From a virus (taxonomy: Duplodnaviria > Heunggongvirae > Uroviricota > Caudoviricetes): DNA of 45,905 nucleotides. Position numbers and translations under genes: made by a program. The notes beneath the pieces were generated by a model. That model was not told where the DNA came from. It saw only the letters and a program-made list of their open reading frames with translations, and did no database searches. This document shows, in pieces, positions 1 through 40,905 of this stretch; the first letter of the stretch is position 1, and every line of letters begins with the position of its first letter. The stretch is taken from the IMG/VR virus record IMGVR_UViG_643348547_000010, positions 1 through 45,905 of that record. One strand, given 5' to 3'.

Positions 1-367
1 ATGAAGAAAGTTTTTCTTTGCGCCATCTTAGCCTCCTTAAGCTATCCGGCTATCGCCTCATCATTGCAGGATCAACTCTCTGCTGTCGCAGAAGCGGAAC
101 AGCAAGGTAAAAATGAAGAGCAAAGGCAGCATGACGAATGGGTCGCGGAGCGCAACAGGGAAATCCAGCAAGAGAAGCAACGTCGCGCAAACGCCCAGGC
201 CGCCGCTAACAAAAGAGCGGCAACGGCAGCGGTAAATAAGAAAGCTCGTCAGGATAAACTGGACGCCGAAGCCTCTGCGGATAAAAAACGCGATCAAAGT
301 TATGAAGATGAGCTACGCAGCTTAGAGATTCAGAAACAAAAACTGGCGCTGGCGAAAGAAGAAGCCC
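1..367 (+). pseudogene. Secreted coiled-coil protein gene, 5' portion, interrupted by IS629 (continues at 3948)
   Basis: ORF starts at 1 with signal-peptide-like N-terminus (MKKVFLCAILASLSYPAIA), Lys/Glu/Gln-rich body; reading frame runs into IS629 left end at 368. Confidence 0.6.
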
Positions 368-1818: not shown

Positions 1819-3342
1819 TTGATAATCAGCGAAATGCAACGCAAGCTTGCCACATGGGCAGCCACCGATCCGTCCCTACGGATTCAACGGCTGCTGCGTC
1901 TAATAACACAACCAGAATGGCTGGCTGAAGCGGCGCGGATCACGCTTTCATCAAAGGGGGCCCATACCCCCGGCGTTGATGGCGTGAACAAAACAATGCT
2001 ACAGGCCAGACTGGCTGTTGAGCTGCAAATCCTCAGGGATGAATTACTCTCAGGCCACTACCAGCCCTTGCCCGCCAGACGGGTTTACATCCCTAAAAGC
2101 AACGGCAAACTGCGACCACTGGGTATCCCCGCGTTGCGGGATCGTATTGTTCAGCGGGCCATGCTGATGGCGATGGAGCCGATATGGGAGAGTGATTTTC
2201 ATACGCTCTCATATGGCTTCCGGCCTGAGCGCAGTGTCCACCACGCGATCCGCACGGTGAAATTACAGCTCACAGACTGCGGTGAAACCCGGGGACGCTG
2301 GGTGATTGAAGGCGACCTGTCCAGTTACTTCGACACCGTACATCATCGACTGCTGATGAAGGCTGTACGCCGCAGGATCAGTGACGCACGTTTCATGACT
2401 CTGCTGTGGAAAACCATCAAGGCGGGACATATCGATGTCGGTCTCTTTCGGGCGGCCAGTGAAGGTGTGCCACAGGGCGGTGTTATATCGCCGCTATTAT
2501 CGAACATCATGCTGAATGAGTTCGATCAATACCTGCATGAGCGCTACCTGAGCGGGAAAGCCAGAAAAGATCGGTGGTACTGGAATAACAGTATCCAACG
2601 GGGCCGAAGTACGGCGGTCAGAGAAAACTGGCAGTGGAAACCCGCGGTGGCGTACTGCCGCTATGCCGATGATTTTGTCCTCATCGTCAAAGGCACCAAA
2701 GCACAGGCGGAAGCCATCAGGGAGGAGTGTCGGGGTGTGCTCGAAGGCAGTCTGAAACTCAGGCTGAACATGGATAAGACTAAAATCACCCATGTTAATG
2801 ACGGCTTTATCTTTCTGGGGCACAGGATCATTCGCAAACGCAGTCGTTATGGCGAGATGCGAGTGGTCTCAACGATCCCGCAGGAGAAAGCCAGAAACTT
2901 CGCCGCATCGCTGACAGCACTGTTATCAGGCAACTACAGTGAAAGCAAAGTCGATATGGCTGAACAACTCAACCGAAAACTGAAAGGCTGGGCCATGTTC
3001 TATCAGTTCGTTGATTTTAAGGCCAAAGTCTTCAGTTATATCGACCGTGTCGTGTTCTGGAAGCTGGCTCACTGGCTGGCCCGCAAATACCGTACAGGTA
3101 TCGCTTCCCTGATGAGGTGGTGGTGTAAATCACCGAAACCGGGTCAGAGCAAAACGTGGGTTTTATTTGGTAAAACCAATCACGGCAAGCTCAGCGGCGA
3201 AATACTGTACCGGTTGGTGGGGCAAGGCAAGAAGCTGTTCCGCTGGCGGCTACCCGAAGGTAATCCCTATCTGAGGACGGAGACCAGAAACACGTATACA
3301 TCGCGCTTTACAGAAGTGGCAATGGCGTTCGCCAGCATTTAA
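1819..3342 (+). CDS. Group II intron-encoded reverse transcriptase/maturase
   Basis: 507-aa ORF with RT palm motifs (FDTVHHRLL, YADDFVLIV) and C-terminal maturase-like region; no HNH/En motifs visible. Confidence 0.9.
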   Translation: MIISEMQRKLATWAATDPSLRIQRLLRLITQPEWLAEAARITLSSKGAHTPGVDGVNKTMLQARLAVELQILRDELLSGHYQPLPARRVYIPKSNGKLRPLGIPALRDRIVQRAMLMAMEPIWESDFHTLSYGFRPERSVHHAIRTVKLQLTDCGETRGRWVIEGDLSSYFDTVHHRLLMKAVRRRISDARFMTLLWKTIKAGHIDVGLFRAASEGVPQGGVISPLLSNIMLNEFDQYLHERYLSGKARKDRWYWNNSIQRGRSTAVRENWQWKPAVAYCRYADDFVLIVKGTKAQAEAIREECRGVLEGSLKLRLNMDKTKITHVNDGFIFLGHRIIRKRSRYGEMRVVSTIPQEKARNFAASLTALLSGNYSESKVDMAEQLNRKLKGWAMFYQFVDFKAKVFSYIDRVVFWKLAHWLARKYRTGIASLMRWWCKSPKPGQSKTWVLFGKTNHGKLSGEILYRLVGQGKKLFRWRLPEGNPYLRTETRNTYTSRFTEVAMAFASI

Positions 3343-4343: not shown

Positions 4344-4826
4344 CTATCTGGTCAAAGTGTCGTACTGTTTTTCGCAGACTCTTCCGGCTTCGGCTGCCCG
4401 GTCAGCATACTCTGCCAGTTGTCTGTTTCTCTCGAGAGATTTGCTGAGCACGTCGGCAAGCAAAACTCCGGTGTCTGCGGCTGACGACCCAGCGCCGACA
4501 ATGGCGTTATACTGCCTGAGCTGCTCACGGATGGCAAAGAGTTGTTGCTGCAACCGGCCAGCGCTAGCGGCAGCATCAAGAGCATCATTGCGCGCCTGGT
4601 CGATTCTCTGCTGAGCTTCACGTTCATTGGTCACTTTCTCCTGTTCGTAGTACTGACGAACTTTGTCTTCTTCGGCTTTGCGGTCTTCTTCCGCCTGAGC
4701 ATACCCGGCATCGTACTGGCGACTGCCGTGTATATTCCAGGCAACCACTCCTGATATGACCAGAACAGCAAGCACTGCCACGATAAGAAACTGTTTCCAG
4801 TATGCTTTTACGAATGCCCAGATCAT
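4344..4826 (-). CDS. Rz-like i-spanin
   Basis: 160 aa, N-terminal TM segment then charged coiled-coil periplasmic region; immediately downstream of endolysin. Confidence 0.75.
4352..4588 (-). CDS. Rz1-like o-spanin lipoprotein, embedded in Rz in the +1 frame
   Basis: Lipobox LALAGC after short signal ([14 protein letters not shown]), Pro-rich mature part; start chosen at internal Met of the track ORF 4352-4627. Confidence 0.6.
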   Translation of the reverse strand: MMLLMLPLALAGCSNNSLPSVSSSGSITPLSALGRQPQTPEFCLPTCSANLSRETDNWQSMLTGQPKPEESAKNSTTL

Positions 4827-9762: not shown

Positions 9763-10020
9763 ATGCAGCAGTATCACTATCCACTGGAAGACGGATTTAC
9801 CGAAAGGATTCACACGCCGGGAGGCGTCAGGTCACTGGTGGAGGGATCGCACTTGATGAAATTACTCCGGGATCTCGATAAGGATGGATTTAATGTCGAT
9901 GGCCCACTTGCCGAACTGACTGCACTGATTAACTACGTCACCAGCTCACAGATGTCTATGCAGGATCTGCAAACACATCTCGACTATTGTGCCGAACAAT
10001 TACGAAAACAAACCAGATAA
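9763..10020 (+). CDS. Small protein paralogous to the C-terminal domain of the antirepressor at 10338-10994
   Basis: Start at internal ATG with GGAGAAG RBS; about 45 percent identity by eye to the last 80 aa of the AntA-like protein (shared ...IH-P-GV..L.E.S.LM.LL..L..DG..V.G..AELT....Y...LQTH..Y). Confidence 0.5.
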   Translation: MQQYHYPLEDGFTERIHTPGGVRSLVEGSHLMKLLRDLDKDGFNVDGPLAELTALINYVTSSQMSMQDLQTHLDYCAEQLRKQTR

Positions 10021-10337: not shown

Positions 10338-10994
10338 ATGAACGCTCAACTCATCCCCGTATTCAACGGCACTATCGCCAACGAAACCACTCTTCTCGTT
10401 AATGCTCGCGATTTACATACTTTTCTTGGGGTAGGTAAACGCTTTGCATCGTGGATTACAGAACGCATTGCTGAATATGGTTTCGTTGAAAATCAGGACT
10501 ATATTTTGGTTTCCCCAAATCGGGAAATCAAAGGTCGAGGAGGCGATCGCCGTAGCAAAGACTATCACCTCACCCTCGATACGGCCAAAGAAACTGCGAT
10601 GGTCGAGCGCAACGAAAAAGGCCGCCAGATACGCCGATACTTCATTGAATGCGAGAAACGTTTAAGACAACAAGAAACAAAGGTGGAGAAGGTCTTGTCA
10701 GGCTTCATGCCCGCCATTATGGAGGCGATCAAACTGGAAGACAAAAAAGAATACAGTGCCCCACTGAAGCCAGGCTACCGTAGCCTGATTCATTCGCCGT
10801 CTGGTGTTCTCGGCCTGACGGAGAACTCACTGCTGATGAATCTGCTGAACCAGTTGCAGGAAGACGGGCACGATGTATCGGGCGCGGCGGCGGAACTGAC
10901 CACCATGTTCTGCTACATCGTCGGTGTGAGCAAATGCCTGCGTGATATCCAGACGCACGCGGAGTACATCAACGACAAGGCAGGATTCTTCTGA
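10338..10994 (+). CDS. Antirepressor, AntA-like N-terminal domain plus C-terminal domain
   Basis: N-terminal DLHTFLGVGKRFASWITERIAEYGFVENQDYIL pattern typical of AntA/AntB-type antirepressors; RBS GGAG upstream. Confidence 0.7.
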   Translation: MNAQLIPVFNGTIANETTLLVNARDLHTFLGVGKRFASWITERIAEYGFVENQDYILVSPNREIKGRGGDRRSKDYHLTLDTAKETAMVERNEKGRQIRRYFIECEKRLRQQETKVEKVLSGFMPAIMEAIKLEDKKEYSAPLKPGYRSLIHSPSGVLGLTENSLLMNLLNQLQEDGHDVSGAAAELTTMFCYIVGVSKCLRDIQTHAEYINDKAGFF

Positions 10995-11888: not shown

Positions 11889-11961
11889 GTGTCTGCGGAT
11901 TCCCGCCCGGGTGGCGGTGGCATTCGTTAAAAACAAGGCCGCGAAAGCGGCCTGTGACATG

Positions 11962-12342
11962 TCACGCAACGCAATTATTACCGCGCCATGTAACATTTTT
12001 AATAATCTTATCAGCACCAAACTCAACGTAAACAGAGCAACTGAAATGGAGTGTATAACCGCCATCAGTTGTTGCGTATGTGTTTGAATATATAGTATTA
12101 CCAATTAGATTAGACGTAGTATTATACGTTGTGGTTTGTGGTACGTTATAACTACCAGAGCTTGAGTAAACATACACTCTGTTTCCATCTGGAGATGTAA
12201 GCTCTCCCTGAGGATACCCCCACTGCTGAACCATTGCGTCTATACTCTGCCCGCGCCACGTAAGCATATTTCTTTCAAACTGTGCAGCTGACTGGCATCC
12301 AACGAGAAGCATAAATCCAAAAATCAAAAATACTTTTCTCAT
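11962..12342 (-). CDS. Lipoprotein (possible superinfection-exclusion type accessory gene)
   Basis: Start at MRKVFLIFGFMLLVGCQSAA (lipobox LLVGC); Ser/Thr/Asn-rich mature part. Confidence 0.55.
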   Translation of the reverse strand: MRKVFLIFGFMLLVGCQSAAQFERNMLTWRGQSIDAMVQQWGYPQGELTSPDGNRVYVYSSSGSYNVPQTTTYNTTSNLIGNTIYSNTYATTDGGYTLHFSCSVYVEFGADKIIKNVTWRGNNCVA

Positions 12343-12389
12343 AATTACCCCTATCATGGAAAAACAGCACCAATCCACAAATTAACTAG

Positions 12390-12578
12390 TTATTTTATTA
12401 TTCTTCCGAACAATACAATTCCGAATACTACAAAGCCGAACCATGCCGCTGCACGCAACAGAGATTCCAATTGAAACCCATTTTTATCAAAATGTATGAA
12501 TAGCATAAAAACGCTGCACATATTAGTACAATAAAAGTTATTTGAACCATCATATCTCCTTTTATTGCGGAGTGACAT
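12390..12578 (-). CDS. Small hypothetical protein with C-terminal hydrophobic segment
   Basis: 62-aa ORF only; overlaps the end of the upstream gene. Confidence 0.3.
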   Translation of the reverse strand: MSLRNKRRYDGSNNFYCTNMCSVFMLFIHFDKNGFQLESLLRAAAWFGFVVFGIVLFGRIIK

Positions 12579-14232
12579 CCTGTGGTCGCCACCAGTATGT
12601 CTGGTTAAACTCTTTCTTCGAACGTTGCTCCATTTTACGCAAATAGCCTGGTGAAAAATACTCCTGCATCTGGTTAAAGATCATGTGATCGAGAGCCGCC
12701 TTCAAGTACCAGAGATTCGCACCAGGCATCAAACCTTTCCCCAGCTTCACCAGATCACCACCAGTCTGCTCACTCTTCCCTTCCACAGCATTTAACGGTA
12801 TGCCCTGAGCAATCTTCACTACGTCATCAACCAGACCAGCTACCGGGCCAAGCATCGACGCCAGCGCGCCGCTTCCGTACCTAGTGTGATCTGACAATAA
12901 AAAGTCACCGTAAAGGCCAAGACCACCACCTTTCAGTAGAGCACCAAGCCAGAATTTTGCGGCATCTTCTCCTGTCATCTCTCGAGGATTACGACCAGAC
13001 GCAAGGTCGTTAAGTTGCTGCGACAAAGCGCCAAGAATGGTCGTACTGGCAATAAACGTCGCAATATATGCCGCACGCCCACCAGCAGACGGCATACCCA
13101 TAGCGCGTGACCAGTGACGCATAACAACCGAGATAGGGAACGATTTAAACAGGAAAACACTTCTCGTTAATTCACCTTTCCATGTTCCACGCTGAATACC
13201 AGAACCGGTTATCAGTTGCTCACGTGCTCCCGGTGTAATAACAGCCATATCAACTTCTTCAGTTACGGCACCGAGCAGTTTACGCATTGCCTCAAATTTC
13301 ACGCGTTCAGGCTCACCAAGATGTTTAACTGCTGAATCAGGGATACGCATAATGCTTTCCGGTGTCAGCATCGTATTATTACCGTTCCCCCAGTCCTCCT
13401 GTTTCGCCAGCTTCCATACGCTCCAGTCTGTGTCAGTAATCCCTTTGCTTTTCAGGATACGAAAATCAGAGTCATCGAGGCTACGAAGGTCTGGTGTCCG
13501 TGACACTACTTCTCCCAGGCTTCCCATCATGGTTACGCCATAGGCGCGCTTGTGCGCATCTGACCATGCTGTAAGCCCACTGGCACGCATTACCGCCGTT
13601 GCCGCCCAACGAGACACTGACGGCCCCATATTATCCATCGCCCAGCGGTTAACGCTGCCAAGTAGAGATTCCATCGCCAGACCAGCGCGGCGCGCCCGCG
13701 CAAGTTCTGTACGGTTCGTTGGGTCCATAGCTTCAAGCTGGTTGCGGAATAACTGGTTCATTGGAAGGTTGGTAACCTTCGCAGACAGATACATGGTTCC
13801 AAGATCAGAGAACGATGACAGCAACGCGGATCCGAGTCTGCTGGCAACCAGCCAGTTGCGGATATTGTCAGACCATCGCGCGATGTGCGGATTCGCTACA
13901 GGCTGTGTCTTTCCGGAAATAAAGTTGTACAGATTCTCTGTGTTGTTCGCCAGCCGCTCGACTTTACCGGTTTTACTCGGGTTAGCTGTTGCCGTTTCTG
14001 CCTTCACCTGATCAAGAAGAGAGCGGAAAACATGATCGGGGTTTGGGCCATATGTTTCCACCAGTGCAATATCTTTACTGATACCTTCCAGGTGACCGAC
14101 CATGATTTCCCATAGAGAGCGATCGCCATAAAGTTGCTGATATTGCAGATAGGAATCTGCATCTTTGAAATGTATCTGTCGTGATGCATTACCACGGTTA
14201 GCACGTGCGCCGGAAATTCGCATTCCGGTATC
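12562..14232 (-). pseudogene. Internal virion (ejection/core) protein gene, C-terminal portion, separated from its 5' part by IS629 copies
   Basis: 557 codons of phage sequence downstream of IS629 left end; the track ORF (12562-14325) starts inside the IS. Confidence 0.7.
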
Positions 14233-16273: not shown

Positions 16274-17076
16274 GTAAGCTTATTCAGCCCACCAGTAGCG
16301 ATCGTGTTATAAGCCTCTCCAAGAAATGAAGACAACTCGGCATCGTTCATCAGTTGTCCATCGGCTCGGATATAATATTTGCGATCCAGCTTACCTATAA
16401 CATCGCTAACCCACTTATCCTTTGATACTGCCCCAACCTTTTCCATAGAATGATGTTGAGGGATCCCCCAGTTTTCGAGATAGCCAATGTCCCCACCAGC
16501 ATCATTAAACCGGCGGCGCAGCAGCTCTGTAACTTCTCTCCACGCCTTAGCACCGTTTCTTGCTTTAGCATTGCCAGTATTTTGCCCCCGCATTTCATAT
16601 ACCAGGTCACGTACGCCCGCTTCATCTTCAAACAGACCAAAAAAGCGAGGATCAACTGCTTCGAATGCCTCCTGCAATTGACTCAATGCATAATCACGGG
16701 TGGCTTTTGTTCTGGATTCAACAGAGAGGAAATTAGATTTACCGTCTGCATTAAAAGCTATAGTACGGTTAAGAGCGCCAAGTTTCCCATCAGCCCCTTG
16801 ATAGCTATTGATAAATTTATCCAATCTCTGACGTGCGGCTATAGTGAGAGCCACACGACGTTTCTTTAATGTCGCTTCTCGCTGTAATTCTTCAGATGCC
16901 AATTGTGCTGCACGATACAACCGTTCTGATTCGGAAAGTTGTCGCCACGACATCGGGTCATCACGAGCAATGGAGCGCATATTTCGATAAATGCGGTCTT
17001 CAATGTTCTGTATTTCTCGCGCCGTTAACGTGCGCTGCGCCGCCTGCTGGACCGCTTGTATACATTCCTGTCTCAT
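16274..17076 (-). pseudogene. Internal virion (ejection/core) protein gene, N-terminal portion, truncated by IS629
   Basis: Track ORF 16225-17076 reads from phage sequence into the IS end (last 16 residues IS-derived). Confidence 0.7.
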
Positions 17077-18884: not shown

Positions 18885-21394
18885 TGCGGAATATCTCCGG
18901 AGAATCTCTGACGCTTCTGTGTCAGATTAAGAACAACGGGAGAACCATCATCTTTCAGCAGATAACCAGTACCAAGTTTCACCAGGTACTGACTATCGCC
19001 GTAACTTTGCAAACCATACTGACCAGGCGGTGTTTTTATCCCGGAGCCGACAACTTGTTCATTCCAAGCCTGATTAACCTGCTTATCGAATTGCTCTGCA
19101 GACATTCCCCACGGCAAAAGGACATTCCCCATTCCGTTATAGTCATGCACGCCACCTGTAGCTACGTTAACAGCCTGTTTCCAGACATCATTGTCAATTT
19201 CGCCTGATACCACGCCTTTTTTCGCCATCACACCAGCGTAATAATCCTTTGCGATCTCGTATGCCATTGATGCGCCCTGAGCGTCACCAGCAAATGCATC
19301 CTTCACCATGTCAGAAAACTCAAGGCGAAGATCAGCATCTTTAGGCATCGGAATACCTTTCGCATCATCAGTACCTTTACGAGCCGCCGCGCCAGCAAGA
19401 ATTGTCTGCGCAGCGGTTTCAGGAGACACGGAAACATCCGGATTAAACCAGTTTTTTTCTGCCAAAATACCACCAGGCTTATCCATCAGTATCCCGGCAA
19501 CGGCAGCAGATGGAGCGTTGGCACTGATCTGCTGTAGTGCTGACATATACACCTGCCCACCACCAGTGCTCTGCCTGATGGTATCGAGATATGCTGCCTG
19601 TTGGGAAACTGGAGCATCACGAAAGAAAACACCGATCTGATTGGCCTCGTCTTTGGAAAAGAACGTCAGTGGAGTGCCATATGACTTAGCAAGGTCACTG
19701 ACCTGAGCGGCACGCAAGGCAACGCTCTGTCCAAAGTTATCCTTATTGCTCATGTCGATAGGCTTTGCCTGTCCGGAGGCAAGAGAGAACTGCACAGGAT
19801 CCGACTGCCGCTGCTTTATCACCTGATTTGCAGCCGAAACAACGTTGTCATAAAGAGTTGCGCGTGCCGCATACCCCTCCCCTGTATCACCAGTATCCGG
19901 GCGTAATTGCTCAACATATGCTGTAATGCTGCTTGTCGGCATGTTGCGGAAAGAGCCTATATACTGTCCGGCGATCTGCGTATTCTTAAACTCGGTATAT
20001 CGCAGGTTTCCTTCTCTGACTCCATAAGCTGCAATAAAATCATCCTCACCAGGTGGGTTAGGAAATTCAATGCCACGCATATACGCAGCCGTCGCATCGC
20101 GAACCCGGCTGTCGAGCATCGTTTTATATTCAGCCTGCTGTTGTCTGGCTAGTGCATCAGTCTGTCGCAACACGCTGGCCTGATCTGATTCACTTAAAGC
20201 ATCGAACCAGGCTATACCGGTATAACGTTTATTTTTTGTCGGTAGCTGAGAAAGCCCCAGCGCAGCACTAACACCTGCAGTTAACTGCTGATCACTGTAT
20301 GGCTGGCTACCGTTTTCATGATGGATAATGGCTGCACAAAGCGCCTTCAGGGTATCAGGATTTGATGCATCGAGAGGCTCATCAGCAGAAACGCCAAGTT
20401 GTTCGCACACTGCTTTGATATACGACATAGTGTCATTTTTATCAGTAGGCGGTGCCCAGCGATTAATTATCTCGCTGACGGTATCAATACCCTGCCGCTG
20501 ATACGACATCAGGTTCCGCCCTAATGCACGAATACCGTGTTCAGGGGTTTCGAATTTGGCAAAGCGACCATCATCACCAGTCTGCCCAACCCACGGATTA
20601 GTTTTGCTGTATTCAAGATTGCCGGGGTTATTGTTGCGTATACCGCGGGTACGATCGGAAGAGCCACTATCTGCTACAGCACGGCGATAACCAGCAGCAG
20701 TATCGCTTAACTCGCCGTTTTGCTGTCTTACCTGAAGATAGTTTGCTCCAATAGCATTTTGAGCAGTTGCTTTTGCTGTTGCTTCTTTAAACTCGATTTT
20801 CTTGGCCTGGATTTGCTCGTCACTCCAGCCATGTGCAATGCCGTAATCCTCAATTTGCTGGAAAGTTTGCTTATTAGCCAATACGTATGCGGCGTTGTCG
20901 CCATACAATGCTGCGGCATTTTTACCATTGTTCAGCAGCGTAGCCTGAAACTGGCCTTCTTCGTAGGCATTTATTTGCCCTATCTCGTGCCGCCCGGCCT
21001 GCGTAGTGAACTGAATGCGCTGCTGCTGCGCCTGCTGCATGAAAGCATTACGAGCCTGTTCATCCGGCAGCGACATAGCCAGTTGTTCGACCTGAGCATC
21101 AAACTGCTGCGTATACTCCTGACCTTTTCCAATAGCATTTTTCCCTTTCAGGTTAAGCAAACCTGTTTCAGGGTTATTCAGCAGATCGCTGCTTATCTGG
21201 CTTAAGCTAAGAGAAGCATCCTGAGCCATAGCAACATTCGCACGCTGTTTTGCCTGCGCAATAATACCTGCATATTGCTCTGCAACATCGCCAAGTACAT
21301 CACCGACATTTGGTGTCTGAAACGATGAGAATCCCTGCGTCGAAATCCCTCTGCTCTGAACCTGACGGCCCGATGTTGTTGGTACAACTGGCAT
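18881..21394 (-). CDS. Internal virion core protein (T7 gp15-like position) with a conserved globular domain
   Basis: 837-aa ORF; gene order after gp14-like gene; contains GIRNNNPGNLEY motif region. Confidence 0.7.
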   Translation of the reverse strand: MPVVPTTSGRQVQSRGISTQGFSSFQTPNVGDVLGDVAEQYAGIIAQAKQRANVAMAQDASLSLSQISSDLLNNPETGLLNLKGKNAIGKGQEYTQQFDAQVEQLAMSLPDEQARNAFMQQAQQQRIQFTTQAGRHEIGQINAYEEGQFQATLLNNGKNAAALYGDNAAYVLANKQTFQQIEDYGIAHGWSDEQIQAKKIEFKEATAKATAQNAIGANYLQVRQQNGELSDTAAGYRRAVADSGSSDRTRGIRNNNPGNLEYSKTNPWVGQTGDDGRFAKFETPEHGIRALGRNLMSYQRQGIDTVSEIINRWAPPTDKNDTMSYIKAVCEQLGVSADEPLDASNPDTLKALCAAIIHHENGSQPYSDQQLTAGVSAALGLSQLPTKNKRYTGIAWFDALSESDQASVLRQTDALARQQQAEYKTMLDSRVRDATAAYMRGIEFPNPPGEDDFIAAYGVREGNLRYTEFKNTQIAGQYIGSFRNMPTSSITAYVEQLRPDTGDTGEGYAARATLYDNVVSAANQVIKQRQSDPVQFSLASGQAKPIDMSNKDNFGQSVALRAAQVSDLAKSYGTPLTFFSKDEANQIGVFFRDAPVSQQAAYLDTIRQSTGGGQVYMSALQQISANAPSAAVAGILMDKPGGILAEKNWFNPDVSVSPETAAQTILAGAAARKGTDDAKGIPMPKDADLRLEFSDMVKDAFAGDAQGASMAYEIAKDYYAGVMAKKGVVSGEIDNDVWKQAVNVATGGVHDYNGMGNVLLPWGMSAEQFDKQVNQAWNEQVVGSGIKTPPGQYGLQSYGDSQYLVKLGTGYLLKDDGSPVVLNLTQKRQRFSGDIPQ

Positions 21395-30655: not shown

Positions 30656-30684
30656 TTGACATTTAACGCACGAATTATTACCTT
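30656..30684 (+). promoter_or_regulatory. Possible promoter for the tRNA transcript (TTGACA at 30656-30661)
   Basis: Consensus -35 hexamer; -10 is weak and overlapped by operator site E. Confidence 0.3.
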
Positions 30685-30693
30685 TCAGGTAAG
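30677..30693. promoter_or_regulatory. Operator-like 17-bp palindrome (site E)
   Basis: ATTACCTTTCAGGTAAG. Confidence 0.45.
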
Positions 30694-31014: not shown

Positions 31015-31091
31015 GTGGCATTAGCTCACTTGGACAGAGCAACCGCCTTCTAAGCGGTTGGTCGCAGGTTCGAATCCTGCATGCCACGCCA
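31015..31091 (+). tRNA. tRNA-Arg (anticodon UCU), phage-encoded
   Basis: Cloverleaf by hand: acceptor GTGGCAT/ATGCCAC, D-arm GCTC/GAGC, anticodon stem ACCGC/GCGGT with loop CTTCTAA, T-arm GCAGG-TTCGAAT-CCTGC, discriminator G, CCA; sequence differs from host argU. Confidence 0.85.
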
Positions 31092-31387: not shown

Positions 31388-31735
31388 ATGATTAAAATCA
31401 ATAACGTACGTGGTGCTAGCGTTAGCGTCAACGGAGAAGACTTCACTGGTCATCATATTACGATTAACAATGGAAAAGTGATCGTTGATGGTGTCGAAAA
31501 AAATAGCAATCTTGACGGACAGATTAACGTAACAATTAATGGAAGCGTGGAAGGTGTTGAGATTGAAAATGGATCAGTGACTGTAAGCGGTGATGCACAT
31601 TATGTGAAAACTATGTCTGGTGATGTCCATTGTTCCAATGTATTGGGAAATGTAAACACCATGTCTGGAGATGTAATCTGCGAAACTGTTGGTGGAAACG
31701 CCAGCACAATGTCTGGAAATATTATCAAGAAATAA
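31388..31735 (+). CDS. Small repeat-containing protein (beta-strand-rich, bactofilin-like pattern); accessory gene
   Basis: 115 aa with alternating G/V/N pattern and tandem TMSGDV/TMSGNI repeats; strong RBS AAGAGGATG; own terminator. Confidence 0.6.
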   Translation: MIKINNVRGASVSVNGEDFTGHHITINNGKVIVDGVEKNSNLDGQINVTINGSVEGVEIENGSVTVSGDAHYVKTMSGDVHCSNVLGNVNTMSGDVICETVGGNASTMSGNIIKK

Positions 31736-31820: not shown

Positions 31821-33296
31821 TTAAGCATAGGGATCGTAATCTGTAATGGCCCTTCCCTGCTGGCTTTGCTGTCCTGGTATATTTATGCGTTTCGAGACCG
31901 GGAAAGCAAACGTCAGCAGTAGCGCATCGCCTTTACCCGGCGAACGCCCAAGCCGCTCCTTGATATCTTCCTTCGGTTCGATAACGATTTTACCGTCCAC
32001 TCGAACTTTGTACTCTGCCGCCGACAGGTCGTCCGCTGTTTCCTGGTCATCCAGCATGCCGCCCAGCCTCAGCCATGTCTTGCATGAGTTGAACATCTCC
32101 CCACGCTTGTTGAGCATCTGCGGGTCAGTAGACGCGCCACCGAACGGAACAAGTTGCCATGTGCGCCCCCAACCGTCACCGATTGACTTCAGACCAGTTC
32201 CGTAACCGAAGTCGATGAACACCGCGTCAGCCTGATACTGGTCTTCAAAGTCAGCGATACGCTTTGCCATAATCAGATCGTCAGTGGTCTTGTTGCCGGT
32301 CCACAGCACCTTACTGTGCAGCCCCTGCCGCAGGTATATCACCGCGTCATCAACACCGGAGTATGCAGGGTCAACGCCGATTATCACCGGAGCATGCGCC
32401 ACCTGCGCAGCGGTTACCACCCGTTTCATTGCCTCATCAGTAAGACCGGTAGGGATAAACTGCAATTCAGATGCATCAGGGAATATGCCGCGCACACGGA
32501 TTTTAACGAAGTCGCTGTCTTCCCCGTAGTCATCAACCCATTTCTGCAACTGCTGTTTGTTAGTGCCTTCCACCGTTCGGCTGTCAATCTGCGCAGTTTT
32601 CCAGCGGTGTTTATATTTGCGGAAACATTCGCGGAAACGTCCGGTATTACGCGTCGGGTTTCCGAACGCCACCCAGATAATCTCAGTGTCTTCGTCCGTT
32701 AGTGCACCCTCGGCAACTTCCCACACCAGATCCGCAATGTTCGACGCTTCATCGAATACCACGATGATGCGTTTGCGCTCGTTGTGTAGTCCGGCGAATG
32801 CCTCAGTGTTGTGCTCAGACCAGGGGATTGCGTCAGCTCGCCACCGCTTGTCGTGTCCAGGATCATTGCTGTACATCGCGGTAGCGGTACAGGTAAACCA
32901 GTCTTTCGTGATAGCAAGGTTCGACCACTTGATAATTTCCGGCCAGGTCTTCGTTCGTAGCTGGTTGTCGGTGTTGGCGGTCACCACGACCTTACAATCC
33001 TCGCAAGTGGACATGCCCCAGTTGATCAGCATTGAGATGAATGCGGATTTACCAATACCGTGACCAGAAGCGCGTGCCAGCATAAGCGGCTGATAGCGCG
33101 TCTCTGGATTCTGCAGGTGATCACGTATCTCTCGGAACGCATCAGCCTGCCACTGACGTGGGCCGGTAGCATGTGCCAGTTCAGTCCCCTCTTCCCCCCA
33201 CGGGAACGCATAGAGGGCATAGCCAAGCGGATCGTGAGTGAACCCTGCAATATCATCGATCAACTGCTCTTCAGGAGATAACGCTGTATCTGTCAC
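31821..33296 (-). CDS. Terminase large subunit
   Basis: 491 aa, Walker A-like ASGHGIGKS, acidic nuclease-type C-terminal half; directly downstream of small subunit. Confidence 0.85.
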   Translation of the reverse strand: MTDTALSPEEQLIDDIAGFTHDPLGYALYAFPWGEEGTELAHATGPRQWQADAFREIRDHLQNPETRYQPLMLARASGHGIGKSAFISMLINWGMSTCEDCKVVVTANTDNQLRTKTWPEIIKWSNLAITKDWFTCTATAMYSNDPGHDKRWRADAIPWSEHNTEAFAGLHNERKRIIVVFDEASNIADLVWEVAEGALTDEDTEIIWVAFGNPTRNTGRFRECFRKYKHRWKTAQIDSRTVEGTNKQQLQKWVDDYGEDSDFVKIRVRGIFPDASELQFIPTGLTDEAMKRVVTAAQVAHAPVIIGVDPAYSGVDDAVIYLRQGLHSKVLWTGNKTTDDLIMAKRIADFEDQYQADAVFIDFGYGTGLKSIGDGWGRTWQLVPFGGASTDPQMLNKRGEMFNSCKTWLRLGGMLDDQETADDLSAAEYKVRVDGKIVIEPKEDIKERLGRSPGKGDALLLTFAFPVSKRINIPGQQSQQGRAITDYDPYA

Positions 33297-33889
33297 TGAT
33301 TACCATCCTGACGTTCTTTGAGTCGCTTCCTGGCTGCTGCTATGCGATCAGCAATTGTCACATTCACATTAACATCCAGACGTTCTTTGAACGCGTTGAC
33401 ATCAACATGCTTACCAATCAGCTCAAGGTTCTTCACCTTGTCAGGCCATTTAATTTTTTTGAGGATTGTCTCTATCGAATCCTCGTTCATGTTCATGATG
33501 GTCGATGACAGATCAAAGCCACTAAGCGTAGTGCGCCAGATTTTCGGCCACTCACGGATTGGTTTAAGGCTCCCATCGTCGTTGAGGATGTCGATCACGT
33601 CCATCTGGTCGATCTCCACCAGGCGCATGAGAACGTAATCAGCACTGACGCGCATTCGTTTGTTGCGCTCCTCCATCAACTCGGCAATCCGTTTTTGAAT
33701 GCGTTCATCGCGCATCATGACACTGGCTTTAACTGCCGCTGTATTTGGGGAGAATCCTGCGTTAATCGCTGCCTGAGTCTGGTTTTCAGGCGTTTTGATG
33801 TATGACTGGCAATAAGCCTCCTGCATTGCTGTTAGTGGCTTAAATTGCGTTGATTTGCGTTTATAGGTTTTAGGTTCAGCAGGCATCAT
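33293..33889 (-). CDS. Terminase small subunit
   Basis: Motif QEAYCQSYIKTPENQTQAAINAGFS typical of terminase small subunits; start moved to ATG at 33889 because a terminator hairpin lies inside the longer track ORF. Confidence 0.7.
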   Translation of the reverse strand: MMPAEPKTYKRKSTQFKPLTAMQEAYCQSYIKTPENQTQAAINAGFSPNTAAVKASVMMRDERIQKRIAELMEERNKRMRVSADYVLMRLVEIDQMDVIDILNDDGSLKPIREWPKIWRTTLSGFDLSSTIMNMNEDSIETILKKIKWPDKVKNLELIGKHVDVNAFKERLDVNVNVTIADRIAAARKRLKERQDGNQ

Positions 33890-33905
33890 AACCACCGTGG
33901 TAATA

Positions 33906-33922
33906 GTTACCGTTGTGGTAAT
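33906..33922. promoter_or_regulatory. Operator-like 17-bp palindrome (site N) upstream of terS
   Basis: GTTACCGTTGTGGTAAT, preceded by GGTAATAGTTACC. Confidence 0.45.
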
Positions 33923-33932
33923 AGTACCATGC

Positions 33933-33958
33933 AAAATAAAGCCGCCATAGTTGGCGGC
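33933..33958 (-). terminator. Intrinsic terminator upstream of terS
   Basis: Minus-strand hairpin GCCGCCAACTATGGCGGC followed by TTTATTTT. Confidence 0.5.
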
Positions 33959-34007
33959 AGTATTCAAAACCCATCAAATTCATCATGCATAATCTACTCG
34001 TGACATG

Positions 34008-34346
34008 TCACACTATTAATTTCGTTTCATGCCAGCCTTTAGTCACCCAGCATTGCGAGTCACCATTACACGGGCATGAATTAACTGGAACTCTCTCGCC
34101 GCACTTACCGCAACATTTTCTGCTGATCGATTTTATACGCCCGCGCACGCGTGCATCATCCTGGCGGATCAGCAGCGCGATGTACTCGGCCATTTCATAG
34201 GGATCGCGACCAGGGCGCCGGGCGGCGCAGTTCCGCGCCAGCATTTCCTGCTCCTGCTTATCCAGCACCAGTTCAATTTTGCGCTCACCAGATGCAGCTT
34301 GTCTGGCTCTCTGAGCGGCTTTGCGCTCTGCTGCTGATTTAGCCAT
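34008..34346 (-). CDS. Hypothetical Cys-rich protein (possible zinc-binding regulator)
   Basis: 112 aa; basic N-terminus, C-terminal CCGKCG...CPC...C cluster. Confidence 0.5.
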   Translation of the reverse strand: MAKSAAERKAAQRARQAASGERKIELVLDKQEQEMLARNCAARRPGRDPYEMAEYIALLIRQDDARVRGRIKSISRKCCGKCGERVPVNSCPCNGDSQCWVTKGWHETKLIV

Positions 34347-34701
34347 TCTGATTTTCCTGCATCATGAGAAATACAATCATGGCGGCGCGGAGAACATTTT
34401 CATGCTCATGCTCCCAAATAGGGTTGGCAGAAGCACCGTGCAAACCGCTTTCGTTCCAGTCCCAGAGAATGTTAACTCCGTTATCAGCAATAATCGGCCA
34501 TGCATCTGCTGGGTTTGCGCATGGGTTAAAGGATCCGCGCTCAACTTCTACTTCAACTGCGTCTCCGTTTACAATGTCTCCCACAAATGAGATAAACACC
34601 ATCGCGCCATTCTCACCTTCTTTGTAATCCGGTGATCCGTTATGAATGGCTTCGAATACCGCCACGTTAATTTCAAAATCACTTAACTGTGAATAGTCCA
34701 T
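34339..34701 (-). CDS. Hypothetical acidic protein
   Basis: Start at MDYSQLSDFEIN... overlapping upstream stop (ATGA). Confidence 0.5.
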   Translation of the reverse strand: MDYSQLSDFEINVAVFEAIHNGSPDYKEGENGAMVFISFVGDIVNGDAVEVEVERGSFNPCANPADAWPIIADNGVNILWDWNESGLHGASANPIWEHEHENVLRAAMIVFLMMQENQNG

Positions 34702-35414
34702 CACTTCACCTCCTGCGGCGGTTCTGGTAGCGGCATCCAGTGTGATGGTATCCACGACGCACCAGGTATTACCCACCCATCATTAGCGTCAGGATGCCCC
34801 GGGATGTAAGTCGCCCATTTCATTCGCCAGTCACCTTTCCTGTCAAACTCCCTGGCAACAAGAACGGCTGTTTTGGTATCCGGCATTCGCTCACTACAGC
34901 TTATCCAACCATCCGGAGTTACCGGAGAGCTGGTTGACGCTTCCGGGATTTTCCGAAAATTATTGGTTGACGAATCTTTATTTTCCCGAAAGTTTCCGGA
35001 CTGAAGCATGGCTTCGCGGCAATCGTTCCAGCCTGTAGCGTATGCAGCCGCTTTGCTGCTGCCTTCAACTGGCGCATCCTGCCAATACATTTCATCCGGC
35101 ACTACCGGCGCTGGCAAGGCAGCGTGATAGTAGAGTGGCATAGTTTTGTACAGTGGTTCGCCAGGACTTCCGTCAACCTGATTCCATTCTTCAACCCAGG
35201 CATCAACAACCGCTTTGCTGGTTGATACATGTTCTTCTGAATCTACATTTTGTCCTGATATACAGAACATAACTGCCTCTGCTTCCAGCGATGCCAGAGC
35301 AATTCGTGCCAGTTCTTCCGCTTCTTCTGCTGGCAGTACAACGTTGCTACCAGGTCCGTATGTTTCGCGCCACTGCTTGATTGTCAGCAGTCGCTCTTTG
35401 GTTATAGTGGTCAT
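34701..35414 (-). CDS. DUF551-type phage protein
   Basis: C-terminus ...VLVAREFDRKGDWRMKWATY...WMPLPEPPQ matches the DUF551 pattern common in enterobacterial prophages. Confidence 0.6.
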   Translation of the reverse strand: MTTITKERLLTIKQWRETYGPGSNVVLPAEEAEELARIALASLEAEAVMFCISGQNVDSEEHVSTSKAVVDAWVEEWNQVDGSPGEPLYKTMPLYYHAALPAPVVPDEMYWQDAPVEGSSKAAAYATGWNDCREAMLQSGNFRENKDSSTNNFRKIPEASTSSPVTPDGWISCSERMPDTKTAVLVAREFDRKGDWRMKWATYIPGHPDANDGWVIPGASWIPSHWMPLPEPPQEVK

Positions 35415-39449: not shown

Positions 39450-39650
39450 TCAGCTTGAGTGTTGTGGGGAGGAATTAATCATGATCTGCTTAATCTCTGC
39501 CCTGATGCGACGGTTTGATTCCATGGTGCACTCAACACAGTGTCCGTTGTAAACCCAGCGTTCACTGTCATGTCCATGCTTACATGGTTTTCCGGTGTAG
39601 TAGCGTTTAAGTCCGCGCTTTGCGGCATCAATACGTGTAATGATTTCCAT
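39450..39650 (-). CDS. Small zinc-ribbon-like protein (CII-position gene)
   Basis: Start at MEIITRIDAAKRGLKRYYTGKPCKHGH...CVEC; two Cys pairs. Confidence 0.45.
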   Translation of the reverse strand: MEIITRIDAAKRGLKRYYTGKPCKHGHDSERWVYNGHCVECTMESNRRIRAEIKQIMINSSPQHSS

Positions 39651-39729
39651 GGTAAGCCCTGTTATTAGTATTGGGATTACGGTCATTTTGTGCTGACACA
39701 AAAAAAAGATCAACCAGATTTGGTTTTTT

Positions 39730-40185: not shown

Positions 40186-40770
40186 ATGAAAAGTATCCAG
40201 GACGTCCGCAGGCAAAATCTCAACGACTTGATCGACCGTGAATTCAATGGTGTTCAGACGCGGATGGCAGAAAAACTTGGAACTCAGGCAAATCTGGTAA
40301 ACCGCTGGGCTCTTGGCAAGAAGGTTATCGGCGACCAGGTTGCACGAAAAATTGAAGCTGCCGCCAATAAACCCCGTAACTGGCTTGATATTGATCGTTC
40401 GCTTTCTCAGGAGGGTTTTCAGCCTGTCGGCCCGAGCGATATAGGTCAGCTGGCGGCTCACAACCTGGAACGCTGGATGAGCGAAAGCCGCGACCTTTCA
40501 ACGCAGGGAAAACTTCACCGCGCATCCGGCGTCGCCCAGGTGACAATCAGTCGCCTGTTAAACAATGAGGTCAGCGTTTCCATTTCCACCCTGGAGAATG
40601 TTGCATCCGCATTCGGGCGTCACGGATATGAACTACTGATTCACCCGCACGACCCTGCGACTATCAACTATGACCGCTCGCGCTACGCATTGTTACCCGA
40701 AACCGAGAAAGCAAAGATCGAAAGTTACATTGAATTTGTCATCAACCAGAACGAAAAAAACAAACAATAA
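40186..40770 (+). CDS. Immunity repressor candidate: double-HTH DNA-binding protein without peptidase domain
   Basis: 194 aa; two Cro/C1-type HTH segments (QTRMAEKLGTQANLVNRWALGKK and VAQVTISRLLNNEVSVSISTLENVASAF); no Ser-Lys S24 motifs; own terminator. Confidence 0.65.
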   Translation: MKSIQDVRRQNLNDLIDREFNGVQTRMAEKLGTQANLVNRWALGKKVIGDQVARKIEAAANKPRNWLDIDRSLSQEGFQPVGPSDIGQLAAHNLERWMSESRDLSTQGKLHRASGVAQVTISRLLNNEVSVSISTLENVASAFGRHGYELLIHPHDPATINYDRSRYALLPETEKAKIESYIEFVINQNEKNKQ

Positions 40771-40791
40771 AATCATACTCTTCAGTAAGTA

Positions 40792-40826: not shown

Positions 40827-40843
40827 ATTACCTAATGGGTAAT
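40827..40843. promoter_or_regulatory. Operator-like site K
   Basis: ATTACCTAATGGGTAAT (both half-sites perfect). Confidence 0.5.
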
Positions 40844-40861
40844 TTTTTTAACTCATATCTA

Positions 40862-40890
40862 TTGACATCAAACCAAATACGCATAATTAT
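40862..40890 (+). promoter_or_regulatory. PL-like early promoter (TTGACA at 40862-40867, AT-rich -10 region)
   Basis: Consensus -35; site L begins 27 bp after the -35 start, as at the promoters at 10024 and 11040. Confidence 0.45.
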
Positions 40891-40905
40891 TACCTCAACG
40901 GTAAC
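40889..40905. promoter_or_regulatory. Operator-like site L
   Basis: ATTACCTCAACGGTAAC. Confidence 0.5.

What the first reader, a model, noticed from the sequence alone, without database searches (positions are those of the whole stretch)
33890..34011. Regulatory cluster upstream of terS: perfect 12-bp palindrome, terminator and operator-like repeats
Between the upstream Cys-rich gene and terS lie, in order on the minus strand: GTGACATGTCAC (34000-34011, perfect palindrome), an intrinsic terminator (33933-33958), and GGTAAT-A-GTTACC-GTTGT-GGTAAT (33899-33922) with operator-like half-sites in both arrangements. This is where a late promoter and/or packaging initiation (pac or cos) signals would be expected, and there is no obvious Q-like antiterminator gene nearby.
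Basis: seen in the sequence. Interest (0 to 1): 0.4.

Follow-up and report, generated by a model that had tools for sequence, protein, structure and literature searches.

The report
Repressor-controlled late promoter before terS
This short stretch is the junction between the early and late genes of an epsilon15-like prophage: a terminator, then a promoter covered by two binding sites for the prophage repressor, which is largely what the epsilon15 GenBank record already annotates; the 12-bp palindrome is a separate conserved signal tied to the upstream regulator gene, and its role is unknown.

Summary
All three elements are at the stated coordinates. The window is an epsilon15/phiV10-like (Uetakevirus) prophage. 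The "operator-like repeats" are two abutting 17-bp sites of ATTACC-N5-GGTAAT (33906-33922 and 33888-33904). This motif has 16 hits in the window against 1.25 expected, overlaps the early promoters beside the repressor gene, and is annotated as "repressor" binding sites in the epsilon15 record, including one before terS. The window's repressor is a homolog of SPC32H Rep (PDB 5d50). The hairpin 33933-33958 ends the early-right operon and is also annotated in epsilon15. Between the hairpin and the operators lies an extended -10 (TGgTACTAT, 33921-33929). Across 85 related loci its key bases are invariant and its neutral bases vary. The likely mechanism, inferred and not shown, is that Rep blocks the late promoter and the terS ribosome site directly, with no Q-like step. 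A 12-bp palindrome alone is at chance level. This one, GTGAC-NN-GTCAC, overlaps the TGA stop of the upstream gene family in about 83 close relatives and 15 of 20 other genomes, recurs next to other terminators, and the gene encodes a predicted ribbon-helix-helix plus Cys-rich, probably zinc-binding protein. I found no evidence for pac or cos. The cluster is mostly ordinary; the palindrome and its regulator are the open part.

The parts
34008..34346 (-). 112-aa gene, homolog of epsilon15 gp49 and N15 gp46. It is the last gene of the early-right operon and encodes a predicted ribbon-helix-helix domain plus a Cys-rich, probably zinc-binding C-terminal module.
34000..34011 (.). Palindrome GTGACATGTCAC, a member of the GTGAC-NN-GTCAC element. 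It contains the TGA stop of the 112-aa gene.
   Evidence: The 10-bp core TGACATGTCA is present in 83 of 87 related loci and sits at the stop of the gp49-family gene in all but one of them, although the last codons and the downstream DNA differ. It overlaps the stop in 15 of 20 genomes of other genera.
33964..33990 (-). Nine-codon remnant (ATG CAT GAT GAA TTT GAT GGG TTT TGA) of a 62-aa gene that fills this variable slot in about 30 related loci.
   Evidence: Comparison of 42 haplotypes and the split BLAST matches.
33933..33958 (-). Intrinsic terminator ending the early-right operon: 7-bp stem, ACTA loop, TTTATTTT tail.
   Evidence: The stem is invariant in 85 loci except for two changes that keep G.U pairs. 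The homologous hairpin is annotated as a rho-independent terminator in epsilon15 at 39646..39672.
33921..33929 (-). Candidate late promoter: extended -10 TG-g-TACTAT. The predicted transcript start is near 33914-33912.
   Evidence: Across 85 loci, TG, TA and TAT are invariant while the n position and the third hexamer base vary. The same element is present in epsilon15 (TGTTACTAT) and in L105 (TGATAGTAT). The -10/operator overlap matches that of the early-left promoter TTGACA-17-AATTAT at 40862-40890. The transcript start is inferred.
33906..33922 (.). Operator O1 (minus strand ATTACCACAACGGTAAC). It overlaps the -10 hexamer and the predicted +1.
   Evidence: Half-sites are invariant and the central spacer is variable. 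It corresponds to the epsilon15 'protein_bind repressor' feature at 12..27.
33888..33904 (.). Operator O2 (minus strand ATTACCACGGTGGTTAT). It abuts O1 (18 bp centre to centre) and covers the Shine-Dalgarno sequence and the terS start region.
   Evidence: The epsilon15 counterpart ATTACTTCGGTGGTAAC has 2 mismatches and is not annotated there.
33293..33886 (-). terS (Terminase_2 family). The start is the ATG at 33886, and the SD is GGTGG at 33892-33896.
   Evidence: Pfam PF03592, E = 1e-29. The ATG at 33886 is invariant and the one at 33889 is not. The length equals TL-2011b terS, 594 nt.
40186..40770 (+). Prophage repressor Rep, the presumed binder of O1 and O2.
   Evidence: Match to PDB 5d50 (SPC32H Rep), E = 4e-42. 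100% identical to phiV10 Rep.
40827..40905 (.). Early-left control region: operators at 40827-40843 and 40889-40905 around promoter TTGACA-17-AATTAT. It sits just after the rep terminator, and the terminator-plus-operator cassette resembles the one before terS.
30677..30693 (.). Operator in front of the next late unit (gp3 and portal), beyond the reverse-oriented insert and the tRNA-Arg gene.
   Evidence: The epsilon15 counterpart at 2931..2947 is annotated 'repressor'.
11929..11965 (-). Second perfect copy of the palindrome (11954-11965). It again holds the TGA stop of a late gene (11962..12378) and is followed one base later by a terminator (GGCCGC-TTTC-GCGGCC-TTGTTTTT).
   Evidence: The epsilon15 counterpart is at 19517, 3 nt before the annotated terminator 19531..19556.

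Best explanation
The interval is the boundary between the early-right operon and the first late (packaging) operon of an epsilon15-like prophage. It works as a direct repressor switch rather than through antitermination.

Reading the minus strand:
1. The early-right operon ends at the 112-aa gene.
2. A short variable slot follows.
3. An intrinsic terminator (33958-33933) stops early transcripts.
4. Directly after its T-tract lies an extended -10 promoter (TGgTACTAT, 33929-33921) that starts the late transcript near 33914.
5. Two abutting 17-bp operators follow. O1 overlaps the -10 hexamer and +1. O2 overlaps the Shine-Dalgarno sequence and the terS start region.

In the lysogen one Rep tetramer, which has two DNA-binding dimers, is proposed to occupy O1 and O2 and exclude RNA polymerase. 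When the SOS-controlled antirepressor removes Rep, the late promoter fires together with the other Rep-controlled units.

The palindrome at the stop codon of the 112-aa gene is a separate element. It is most likely the binding site of that gene's own ribbon-helix-helix product, and what binding achieves is unknown.

Shown by sequence and comparison: the elements themselves, their conservation pattern, the genome-wide distribution of both motifs, the presence of a Rep homolog, and the fold prediction. Inferred: Rep binding at O1/O2, the transcript start, and who binds the palindrome.
For: - Operator motif: 16 hits against 1.25 expected. The hits include sites that overlap the -10 of the early-left promoter TTGACA-17-AATTAT (40862-40890; operator 40889-40905) and sites in the rep/early-right divergent region.
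- The epsilon15 record annotates the same motif as repressor binding sites before terS, gp3, the tailspike gene and RuvC, and next to the repressor gene. It also annotates the terminator after gp49.
- SPC32H and epsilon15 carry perfect sites at the same places, plus a 1-mismatch site before the lysis genes.
- The window's Rep is homologous to SPC32H Rep (PDB 5d50, E = 4e-42).
- SPC32H Rep binds DNA as a tetramer, and one tetramer suffices for repression (PMC9638917).
- In 85 loci from several genera, the O1 and O2 half-sites, the TG and the TA..TAT of the extended -10, and the terminator stem are invariant. Operator spacers, the linker base, the 'n' of TGn and the third -10 base vary. Stem changes keep G.U pairs.
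- The arrangement is retained in Salmonella and Pseudescherichia.
- For the palindrome.
Against: - There is no experimental transcript start or footprint for this phage group in the papers I could read. The primary papers (Kropinski 2007; Kim & Ryu 2013; Kim 2016) are not in the library. The assignment of the motif to Rep therefore rests on its position at the immunity promoters and on a GenBank annotation.
- The promoter has no recognisable -35. Its TAT overlaps the operator, so part of its conservation could come from the operator.
- The right half of O2 (GGTTAT) coincides with the Shine-Dalgarno region, so its conservation is confounded.
- Direct Rep control alone does not explain any delay of late relative to early genes.
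Confidence: 0.68

Rival explanations
1. A Q-like or N-like antitermination switch. The 112-aa protein, made last in the early-right operon at the position Q holds in lambda, recognises the palindrome as DNA or as an RNA hairpin just upstream of terminators. It lets polymerase read through them, joining early-right, terS-terL and the later units into one late transcript.
For: - The gene sits where Q would be, directly before a terminator and terS.
- Palindrome copies lie 1-50 nt upstream of intrinsic terminators at the ends of the gp49 and gp18 units, in the window, epsilon15 and SPC32H.
- The protein has a DNA-binding fold, a Cys-rich C-terminal module and an Arg-rich N-terminal helix with invariant R8 and R13.
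- GTGACA-18-CATGAT scores 9 of 12 as a promoter upstream of the hairpin.
Against: - Every late unit has its own operator and, for terS, a conserved promoter downstream of the terminator.
- The distance from palindrome to terminator varies from 1 to about 230 nt, with a gene in between in many loci.
- The family member in N15 coexists with a true Q and a separate late promoter.
- In Pantoea, Erwinia and N15-type loci the palindrome is followed by another gene with no terminator.
- There is no sequence similarity to Q families.
- The putative upstream promoter is not conserved.
Confidence: 0.12
2. The palindrome, the repeats or both are packaging signals (pac or cos) recognised by the small terminase. 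This would parallel SPP1, where pac spans the terS promoter and the 5' end of the gene.
For: - terS belongs to Terminase_2, the family of SPP1/SF6 G1P (HHpred note in the epsilon15 record).
- Several GenBank records of this group start in this interval.
Against: - Both motifs are multi-copy. There are about 10 good operator sites, including at the immunity promoters, and 2-4 palindromes per genome.
- The palindrome follows the gp49-family gene in cos phages (N15, P2-like Yersinia phages), far from their terminase genes.
- The record starts differ between phages and coincide with gene or feature boundaries, so they look like convention.
- A pac site inside terS is not excluded and was not examined.
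Confidence: 0.05
3. The palindrome is mainly a module boundary. It would be a short conserved sequence at the edge of hypervariable insertion slots, persisting because it mediates exchange of cassettes between phages rather than because a regulator binds it.
For: - Homology among relatives breaks within 2 bp after the palindrome.
- Each copy borders a slot with different cargo: a 62-aa gene, a LexA-controlled umuD-like gene, gp50 and tRNA-Arg, or different ant modules.
- The other side of each slot is bounded by a repressor operator.
Against: - Twelve bp is too short for efficient homologous exchange.
- The half-sites are conserved across homologs of 32-43% protein identity while the centre varies (AT, CT, GC, TG). 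This is the pattern of a protein-binding site.
- No recombinase is consistently linked to it.
Confidence: 0.1

Closest known systems
Epsilon15 (NC_004775.2) and SPC32H control regions: Rep repressor, its ATTACC-N5-GGTAAT operators, and the terminator after gp49
   Same: The order is the same: gp49 homolog, palindrome at its stop, terminator, operator, terS. The operator motif and its genome-wide placement before each transcription unit are the same. Rep belongs to the same family (PDB 5d50).
   Different: The window's Rep is only about 42% identical to epsilon15 and SPC32H Rep, and 100% identical to phiV10 Rep. The epsilon15 record annotates one site before terS; I find a second, abutting one (O2) and an extended -10. 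The window retains a remnant of an extra gene between palindrome and terminator.
Lambda late control: Q gene, PR' with Q-binding element, tR'
   Same: A small Cys-rich regulator gene is the last early gene. It is followed by a terminator and then by late genes.
   Different: There is no Q homology, and the fold is ribbon-helix-helix. A promoter and repressor operators lie downstream of the terminator, so read-through is not needed. No conserved promoter lies between the regulator gene and the terminator.
Repressors with operators scattered over the whole genome (P1 C1; mycobacteriophage L5 gp71 'stoperators')
   Same: One prophage repressor has sites in front of many units, late ones included, instead of only at an immunity region. 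This comparison rests on my own knowledge of those systems.
   Different: Here the sites are symmetric 17-bp inverted repeats placed at promoters. L5 sites are asymmetric and act on elongation. Rep is an XRE-type tetramer inactivated by an antirepressor.
Ribbon-helix-helix regulators with short repeated sites (P22 Arc and Mnt at the ant promoter; omega of pSM19035 with 7-bp heptads; CopG)
   Same: The predicted fold of the 112-aa protein matches. The half-sites GTGAC/GTCAC lie 7 bp centre to centre. From my own knowledge, that equals the 7-bp period of the omega heptads. The family is often found next to SOS-controlled antirepressor-type modules.
   Different: The protein carries an extra N-terminal Arg-rich helix and a C-terminal Cys-rich module. 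The site sits at the 3' end of its own gene and next to terminators, not at a defined promoter. Binding is untested.

Membership tests
Rep (SPC32H/epsilon15-type) operator | 17-bp inverted repeat ATTACC-N5-GGTAAT | tested here: met
   O1 and O2 each have 1 mismatch. Half-sites are invariant and spacers variable in 85 loci.
Rep (SPC32H/epsilon15-type) operator | The same motif overlaps the early promoters flanking the repressor gene | tested here: met
   Sites at 40115, 40827 and 40889. The site at 40889 overlaps the -10 of TTGACA-17-AATTAT.
Rep (SPC32H/epsilon15-type) operator | A cognate Rep gene is present in the same element | tested here: met
   40186..40770 matches PDB 5d50, E = 4e-42.
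Rep (SPC32H/epsilon15-type) operator | Rep binds the site and represses | not testable with these tools
   Requires EMSA, footprinting or reporter assays. The primary SPC32H papers were not readable.
Intrinsic (rho-independent) terminator | G+C-rich hairpin followed by a U-tract, more stable than shuffled sequence | tested here: met
   7-bp stem with 6 G-C pairs, TTTATTTT tail. Folding energy -16.7 kcal/mol, z = -3.6.
Intrinsic (rho-independent) terminator | Pairing is preserved in relatives | tested here: met
   Only two stem positions vary, and both keep G.U pairs. No fully compensatory change was seen, so the support is modest.
Sigma-70 extended -10 promoter | TGn immediately upstream of a TAnnnT hexamer | tested here: met
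   TGGTACTAT at 33929-33921. TG, TA and TAT are invariant while the n position and the third base vary.
Sigma-70 extended -10 promoter | Transcript start 6-8 nt downstream | not testable with these tools
   Needs 5' RACE or dRNA-seq.
Lambda-type Q antitermination module | A Q-family protein encoded just upstream | tested here: not met
   No Pfam, NCBIfam or PDB sequence hit. The fold is ribbon-helix-helix.
Lambda-type Q antitermination module | A constitutive promoter between the regulator gene and the terminator, at a fixed distance from the regulator's DNA site | tested here: not met
   Only a 9/12 match exists. It is not conserved, and about 30 loci have a 62-aa gene inserted there.
pac/cos packaging site | A site unique in the genome that coincides with virion DNA ends | tested here: not met
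   Uniqueness fails for both motifs. Virion ends cannot be tested here.
Ribbon-helix-helix protein operator (for the palindrome) | A short inverted repeat linked to a gene for an RHH protein | tested here: met
Ribbon-helix-helix protein operator (for the palindrome) | The protein binds the repeat | not testable with these tools
   Needs EMSA or ChIP. Note that the predicted beta-strand residues vary while the half-site does not. The reading element may therefore be the invariant Arg-rich N-terminal helix.

The most novel reading that the evidence does not exclude
GTGAC-NN-GTCAC together with the gp49/N15-gp46 family (ribbon-helix-helix plus a Cys-rich, probably zinc-binding module) is an undescribed phage regulatory pair shared by podo-, sipho- and myovirus prophages of Enterobacterales. 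The protein binds a site built into its own stop codon and further copies placed next to terminators and SOS-controlled modules. There it sets how much transcription crosses operon boundaries, acting as a boundary insulator or as a local antiterminator. In epsilon15-like phages this could supply the missing timing element for late genes.
Probability: 0.3. Interest if true: 0.6.

Novelty: new member of a known kind. Interest (0 to 1): 0.38.

Why it matters
For the cluster itself the value is mostly in annotation. Epsilon15-like prophages occur in about 13% of complete E. coli genomes (688 of 5426). They appear to keep their packaging and head genes silent by direct repressor binding at each late unit, not through a Q or N cascade. 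That bears on predicting induction behaviour and on engineering phiV10- and SPC32H-type reporter phages. The fragment from 33888 to 33960 could serve as a compact promoter-operator cassette controlled by Rep and Ant.

The open part is the palindrome and its ribbon-helix-helix gene family. The family has no Pfam or NCBIfam model, apart from a few distant homologs with a recorded PF10723 hit, and is named only 'hypothetical' or 'transcriptional regulator'. It is widespread, and it comes with a ready-made candidate binding site, so it can be tested directly.

Tried and rejected
- **Truncated prophage.** I first suspected the prophage ended after terL, because a tRNA-Arg gene lies downstream. TL-2011b and SPC32H have the same reverse-oriented insert and tRNA, so I rejected this.
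- **Classical -35/-10 promoter between terminator and terS.** TTGCAT is 17-20 nt from only poor hexamers (GGTAAC, TAACTA). I dropped it in favour of the extended -10.
- **Palindrome as a class I or Ogr-type activator site at a fixed distance from the late promoter.** Rejected, because the distance is about 74, 92 or 277 bp in different relatives.
- **Palindrome as a CRP site.** Rejected, because the half-site spacing is wrong.
- **Palindrome as a -35 (GTGACA) of a promoter.** A -10-like hexamer follows at 17-18 nt in some lineages. It is absent in Pantoea, Yersinia and N15, and at copies that abut terminators.
- **Stop-restart translation (TGA-C-ATG).** Rejected, because the centre is not AT in other lineages.
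- **Heteroimmune covariation test.** I looked for a relative with a different repressor and correspondingly different sites before terS. All relatives that share this terS module share the operator motif, so the test could not be run.
- **Primary literature.** The primary papers on epsilon15 and SPC32H regulation are not held. No held paper contains the palindrome sequence. Searches for packaging-type data on this genus found nothing useful.

Full report
**What the window is.** The region around the finding is 94-98% identical to epsilon15-like podophage genomes (Uetakevirus): phiV10, TL-2011b, HEMP4, ZX5 and PAS61. It is about 76-84% identical to Salmonella epsilon15, SPN1S and PAT1. Related DNA occurs in 688 of 5426 complete E. 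coli genomes.

The late direction is the minus strand. Reading that strand, the genes run as follows:
- integrase at 44655-45905;
- the early-left genes, which lie on the plus strand, and the repressor gene at 40186-40770 (+);
- the early-right operon, ending with NinX (34339-34776) and a 112-aa gene (34008-34346);
- terS (33293-33886) and terL (31821-33296);
- a reverse-oriented insert with a tRNA-Arg gene;
- portal, head and tail genes, an antirepressor region at 9640-11859 (+), the tailspike gene and the lysis genes.

**Check of the observation.**
- The palindrome GTGACATGTCAC is at 34011-34000. It includes the TGA stop (34010-34008) of the 112-aa gene.
- The hairpin GCCGCCA-ACTA-TGGCGGC plus TTTATTTT occupies 33958-33933. 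The terminator scan finds it, and it folds at -16.7 kcal/mol with z = -3.6 against shuffles.
- The repeats are two complete 17-bp inverted repeats. O1 is 33906-33922 and O2 is 33888-33904, each one mismatch from ATTACC-N5-GGTAAT.

A perfect 12-bp palindrome is not by itself unusual. The window has 11, and shuffles give 11.6 +/- 3.2.

**The repeats are repressor operators.** ATTACC-N5-GGTAAT has 16 matches at up to 2 mismatches, against 1.25 expected. None of 100 shuffles reached 16.
- The good sites are not random. The site at 40889-40905 overlaps the -10 of a near-consensus promoter, TTGACA-17-AATTAT at 40862-40890, for the early-left genes just after the repressor gene. The site at 40827 lies 62 bp upstream of it.
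- The site at 40115 lies in the region between the repressor gene and the early-right operon.
- Further sites precede an internal early unit (37729, 37791), the portal unit (30677) and the antirepressor/tailspike region (9671, 11067).
- The product of 40186-40770 matches the crystal-structure sequence of the SPC32H repressor Rep (PDB 5d50, E = 4e-42) and is identical to the phiV10 repressor.
- The GenBank record of epsilon15 annotates the same motif as 'protein_bind: repressor'. The annotated positions are 12-27 (35 bp before terS), before gp3, before the tailspike gene, three times beside the repressor gene, and before RuvC.
- My scan of epsilon15 and SPC32H finds perfect sites at these places, a 1-mismatch site before the lysis genes, and two abutting sites (17 bp apart) between rep and the early-right genes.
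- A later paper states that SPC32H Rep binds DNA as a tetramer, that its DNA-binding dimers come from different dimers of the tetramer, and that one tetramer suffices for repression (PMC9638917). Two abutting operators would suit such a protein.

**Conservation pattern.** I collected 80 related loci from viral contigs, 20 from genomes of other species, and several phage records. Eighty-five of them align without gaps from the terminator to terS.
- In O1, ATTACCA and GGTAA are invariant, while four spacer bases and the last base vary.
- In O2, ATTAC is almost invariant (one locus differs at one base) and GGTGG is invariant, while the spacer varies. The single base between O1 and O2 also varies.
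- Upstream of O1, T33929 and G33928 are invariant and 33927 varies (G, T or A). T33926 and A33925 are invariant, 33924 varies (C, T or G), and TAT at 33923-33921 is invariant. This is the conservation expected for an extended -10 promoter (TGnTAnnnT), and it holds in epsilon15 (TGTTACTAT) and in Pseudescherichia (TGATAGTAT).
- The last two bases of this -10 hexamer are the first two of O1. This is the same geometry as at the early-left promoter (AATTAT/ATTACC).
- The terminator stem varies at two positions only, and both changes keep a G.U pair.
- The ATG at 33889 is lost in the Salmonella-type sequences, whereas the ATG at 33886 is invariant. terS therefore starts at 33886, 5 nt after GGTGG.

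**Mechanism proposed.** The terminator ends the early-right operon. Just after it, an extended -10 promoter starts the late transcript near 33914. Rep on O1 and O2 covers roughly -9 to +27 and should exclude polymerase. O2 would also mask the ribosome-binding site on the DNA. Because each late unit carries its own operator, late genes appear to be direct repressor targets. This explains why no Q-like gene is found. The existence and conservation of the elements are shown. Rep binding, the transcript start and the repression are inferred.

**The slot between palindrome and terminator.** Homology among relatives breaks 2 bp after the palindrome and resumes 22 bp before the hairpin.
- About 30 E. 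coli-type loci carry a 62-aa gene there, beginning MPKIRYDLEDM and ending DEFDGL. The window keeps only ATG plus its last eight codons, including the stop (33990-33964).
- Klebsiella and Citrobacter relatives carry a promoter with a LexA box and a umuD-like gene. Epsilon15 has 22 unrelated bases.
- The palindrome therefore has no fixed distance to the terminator or to the late promoter.

**The palindrome.** It is linked to the upstream gene, not to terS.
- Its 10-bp core TGACATGTCA is present in 83 of 87 related loci. In all but one of these it sits at the stop of the gp49-family gene, although the last three or four codons differ and the downstream DNA is unrelated.
- In 20 loci from other species, found with a profile of distant homologs, GTGAC-NN-GTCAC overlaps the TGA stop in 15. 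In three more it follows within 5 to about 290 bp.
- The centre differs by lineage: AT in epsilon15-like phages, CT in Pantoea, GC in P2/186-like Yersinia prophages, and TG in N15-type.
- The last sense codon varies (GTG, ATG, CTG, TTG, GCG, CCG, TCG), but its third base, which is the first base of the palindrome, is always G. Selection therefore acts on the nucleotides.
- The motif is expected 0.04 times per 46 kb.
- Further copies lie next to other terminators. In the window, 11954-11965 again holds a TGA stop and is followed one base later by a terminator. Epsilon15 has copies at 19517, 3 nt before an annotated terminator, and at 2142, between terL and a convergent gene beside a hairpin. 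SPC32H has copies at 2145, 19634 and 38629, plus a one-mismatch copy at the Rz stop.
- N15 has a copy at the end of the repA operon, about 64 bp upstream of a promoter-like TTGACG-17-TAGAGT that I read by eye before the antirepressor operon.

**The 112-aa protein.**
- It has no Pfam, NCBIfam or PDB sequence match. It belongs to phrog_536, and public sources call its relatives hypothetical.
- A few distant homologs carry a precomputed hit to Pfam PF10723, the RepB replication regulator family.
- An AlphaFold2 model from a 70-sequence alignment has mean pLDDT 88. It shows an Arg-rich N-terminal helix, two helices in ribbon-helix-helix order, a Cys-rich hairpin region and a last helix.
- I infer that the protein binds the palindrome.
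- One caveat applies. The predicted beta-strand residues vary among homologs while the half-site does not. The invariant residues are R8 and R13 in the N-terminal helix and R43, R47, Y50 and E54. The element that reads the DNA is therefore uncertain, and RNA binding is not excluded.
- What binding would achieve is unknown. A role as boundary insulator, as a local antiterminator, or in control of the adjacent SOS-regulated modules all remain possible.
- N15 has both this family and a true Q with its own late promoter. This argues against the family being the general late activator.

**Packaging signals.** I found nothing that points to pac or cos in the interval. Both repeated motifs are multi-copy. 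The palindrome accompanies its gene in cos phages, far from their terminase genes. The start points of GenBank records in this region coincide with feature boundaries and differ between phages. A pac site within terS was not examined and cannot be excluded.

**Comparison and novelty.** The terminator and one operator before terS are already annotated in the epsilon15 record, so the core of the finding is a new instance of a known arrangement. What I add is the following:
- the second operator, O2;
- the conserved extended -10 and its geometry;
- the corrected terS start;
- the variable slot between palindrome and terminator;
- the link between GTGAC-NN-GTCAC and an uncharacterised ribbon-helix-helix gene family found in four phage types.

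No held paper contains the palindrome sequence, but the primary papers on this phage group could not be read.

**Verdict.** Interest in the cluster itself is low to moderate. The palindrome and its regulator deserve a direct binding experiment.

Noticed in passing
window 12565-17076: The homolog of epsilon15 tail gene gp17 is split. Residues 1-319 lie at 17076..16276 and residues 327-907 at 14214..12565, with about 2 kb of IS3-family DNA between them (two ALIL frameshift elements at 14568 + and 15822 -). The prophage is probably defective.
   Followed up: partly
window 400-3900: A group II intron (reverse-transcriptase ORF 1819..3342; Rfam intron domain 3346-3432) and another IS3-type element (ALIL at 703-819) lie just beyond the prophage lysis genes (Rz at 4347..4826).
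   Followed up: no
window 9640-11859 (+): The antirepressor region looks like a hybrid. It holds a LexA box (TACTGTATAAACATACAGTT, near 9728-9747), an Ant homolog 84% identical to epsilon15 gp19 (9766..10014), then isrK (10103-10179) and a C4 antisense RNA (10204-10288) as in P1/N15-type immunity, and a second Ant-like segment (10743..10967). Four repressor operators lie in this region.
   Followed up: partly
window 31015-31091 (+); L001 722-973: The tRNA-Arg(TCT) gene is phage-borne and reverse-oriented, as in SPC32H. The CDS gp24 in the TL-2011b RefSeq record is an ORF called across this tRNA gene.
   Followed up: partly
window 35425-36180 (-): A 251-aa early gene matches phrog_887, 'queuine tRNA-ribosyltransferase' (E = 6e-103), with no Pfam hit. 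It may be a DpdA-like enzyme for 7-deazaguanine DNA modification.
   Followed up: no
L071, L072, L094, L095, L100, L108-L112 (downstream of the gp49-family gene): In lineages other than the E. coli/Salmonella terS type, a LexA box (CTGT-N8-ACAG) follows the palindrome within 31-285 bp in 11 loci. Chance expectation is about 0.005 per locus. This suggests a recurrent link between this gene family and SOS-controlled modules (umuD-like genes; a tum-like position in 186-like Yersinia prophages).
   Followed up: partly
window 40791-40843 compared with 33906-33958: The terminator-plus-operator cassette after the rep gene (GCCGCCTTCTGGCGGC TTTTTTATTGCCTATACTATTACC...) resembles the one before terS (GCCGCCAACTATGGCGGC TTTATTTTGCATGGTACTATTACC...). 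They look like duplicated regulatory cassettes.
   Followed up: no
window 31388-31735 (+): The reverse-oriented 115-aa gene after terL has no Pfam hit. It is repetitive (GDV/MSGD repeats, possibly bactofilin-like) and occupies a slot that holds different cargo in epsilon15 (gp50) and in BUCT554 (an N4 gp49-like protein).
   Followed up: no
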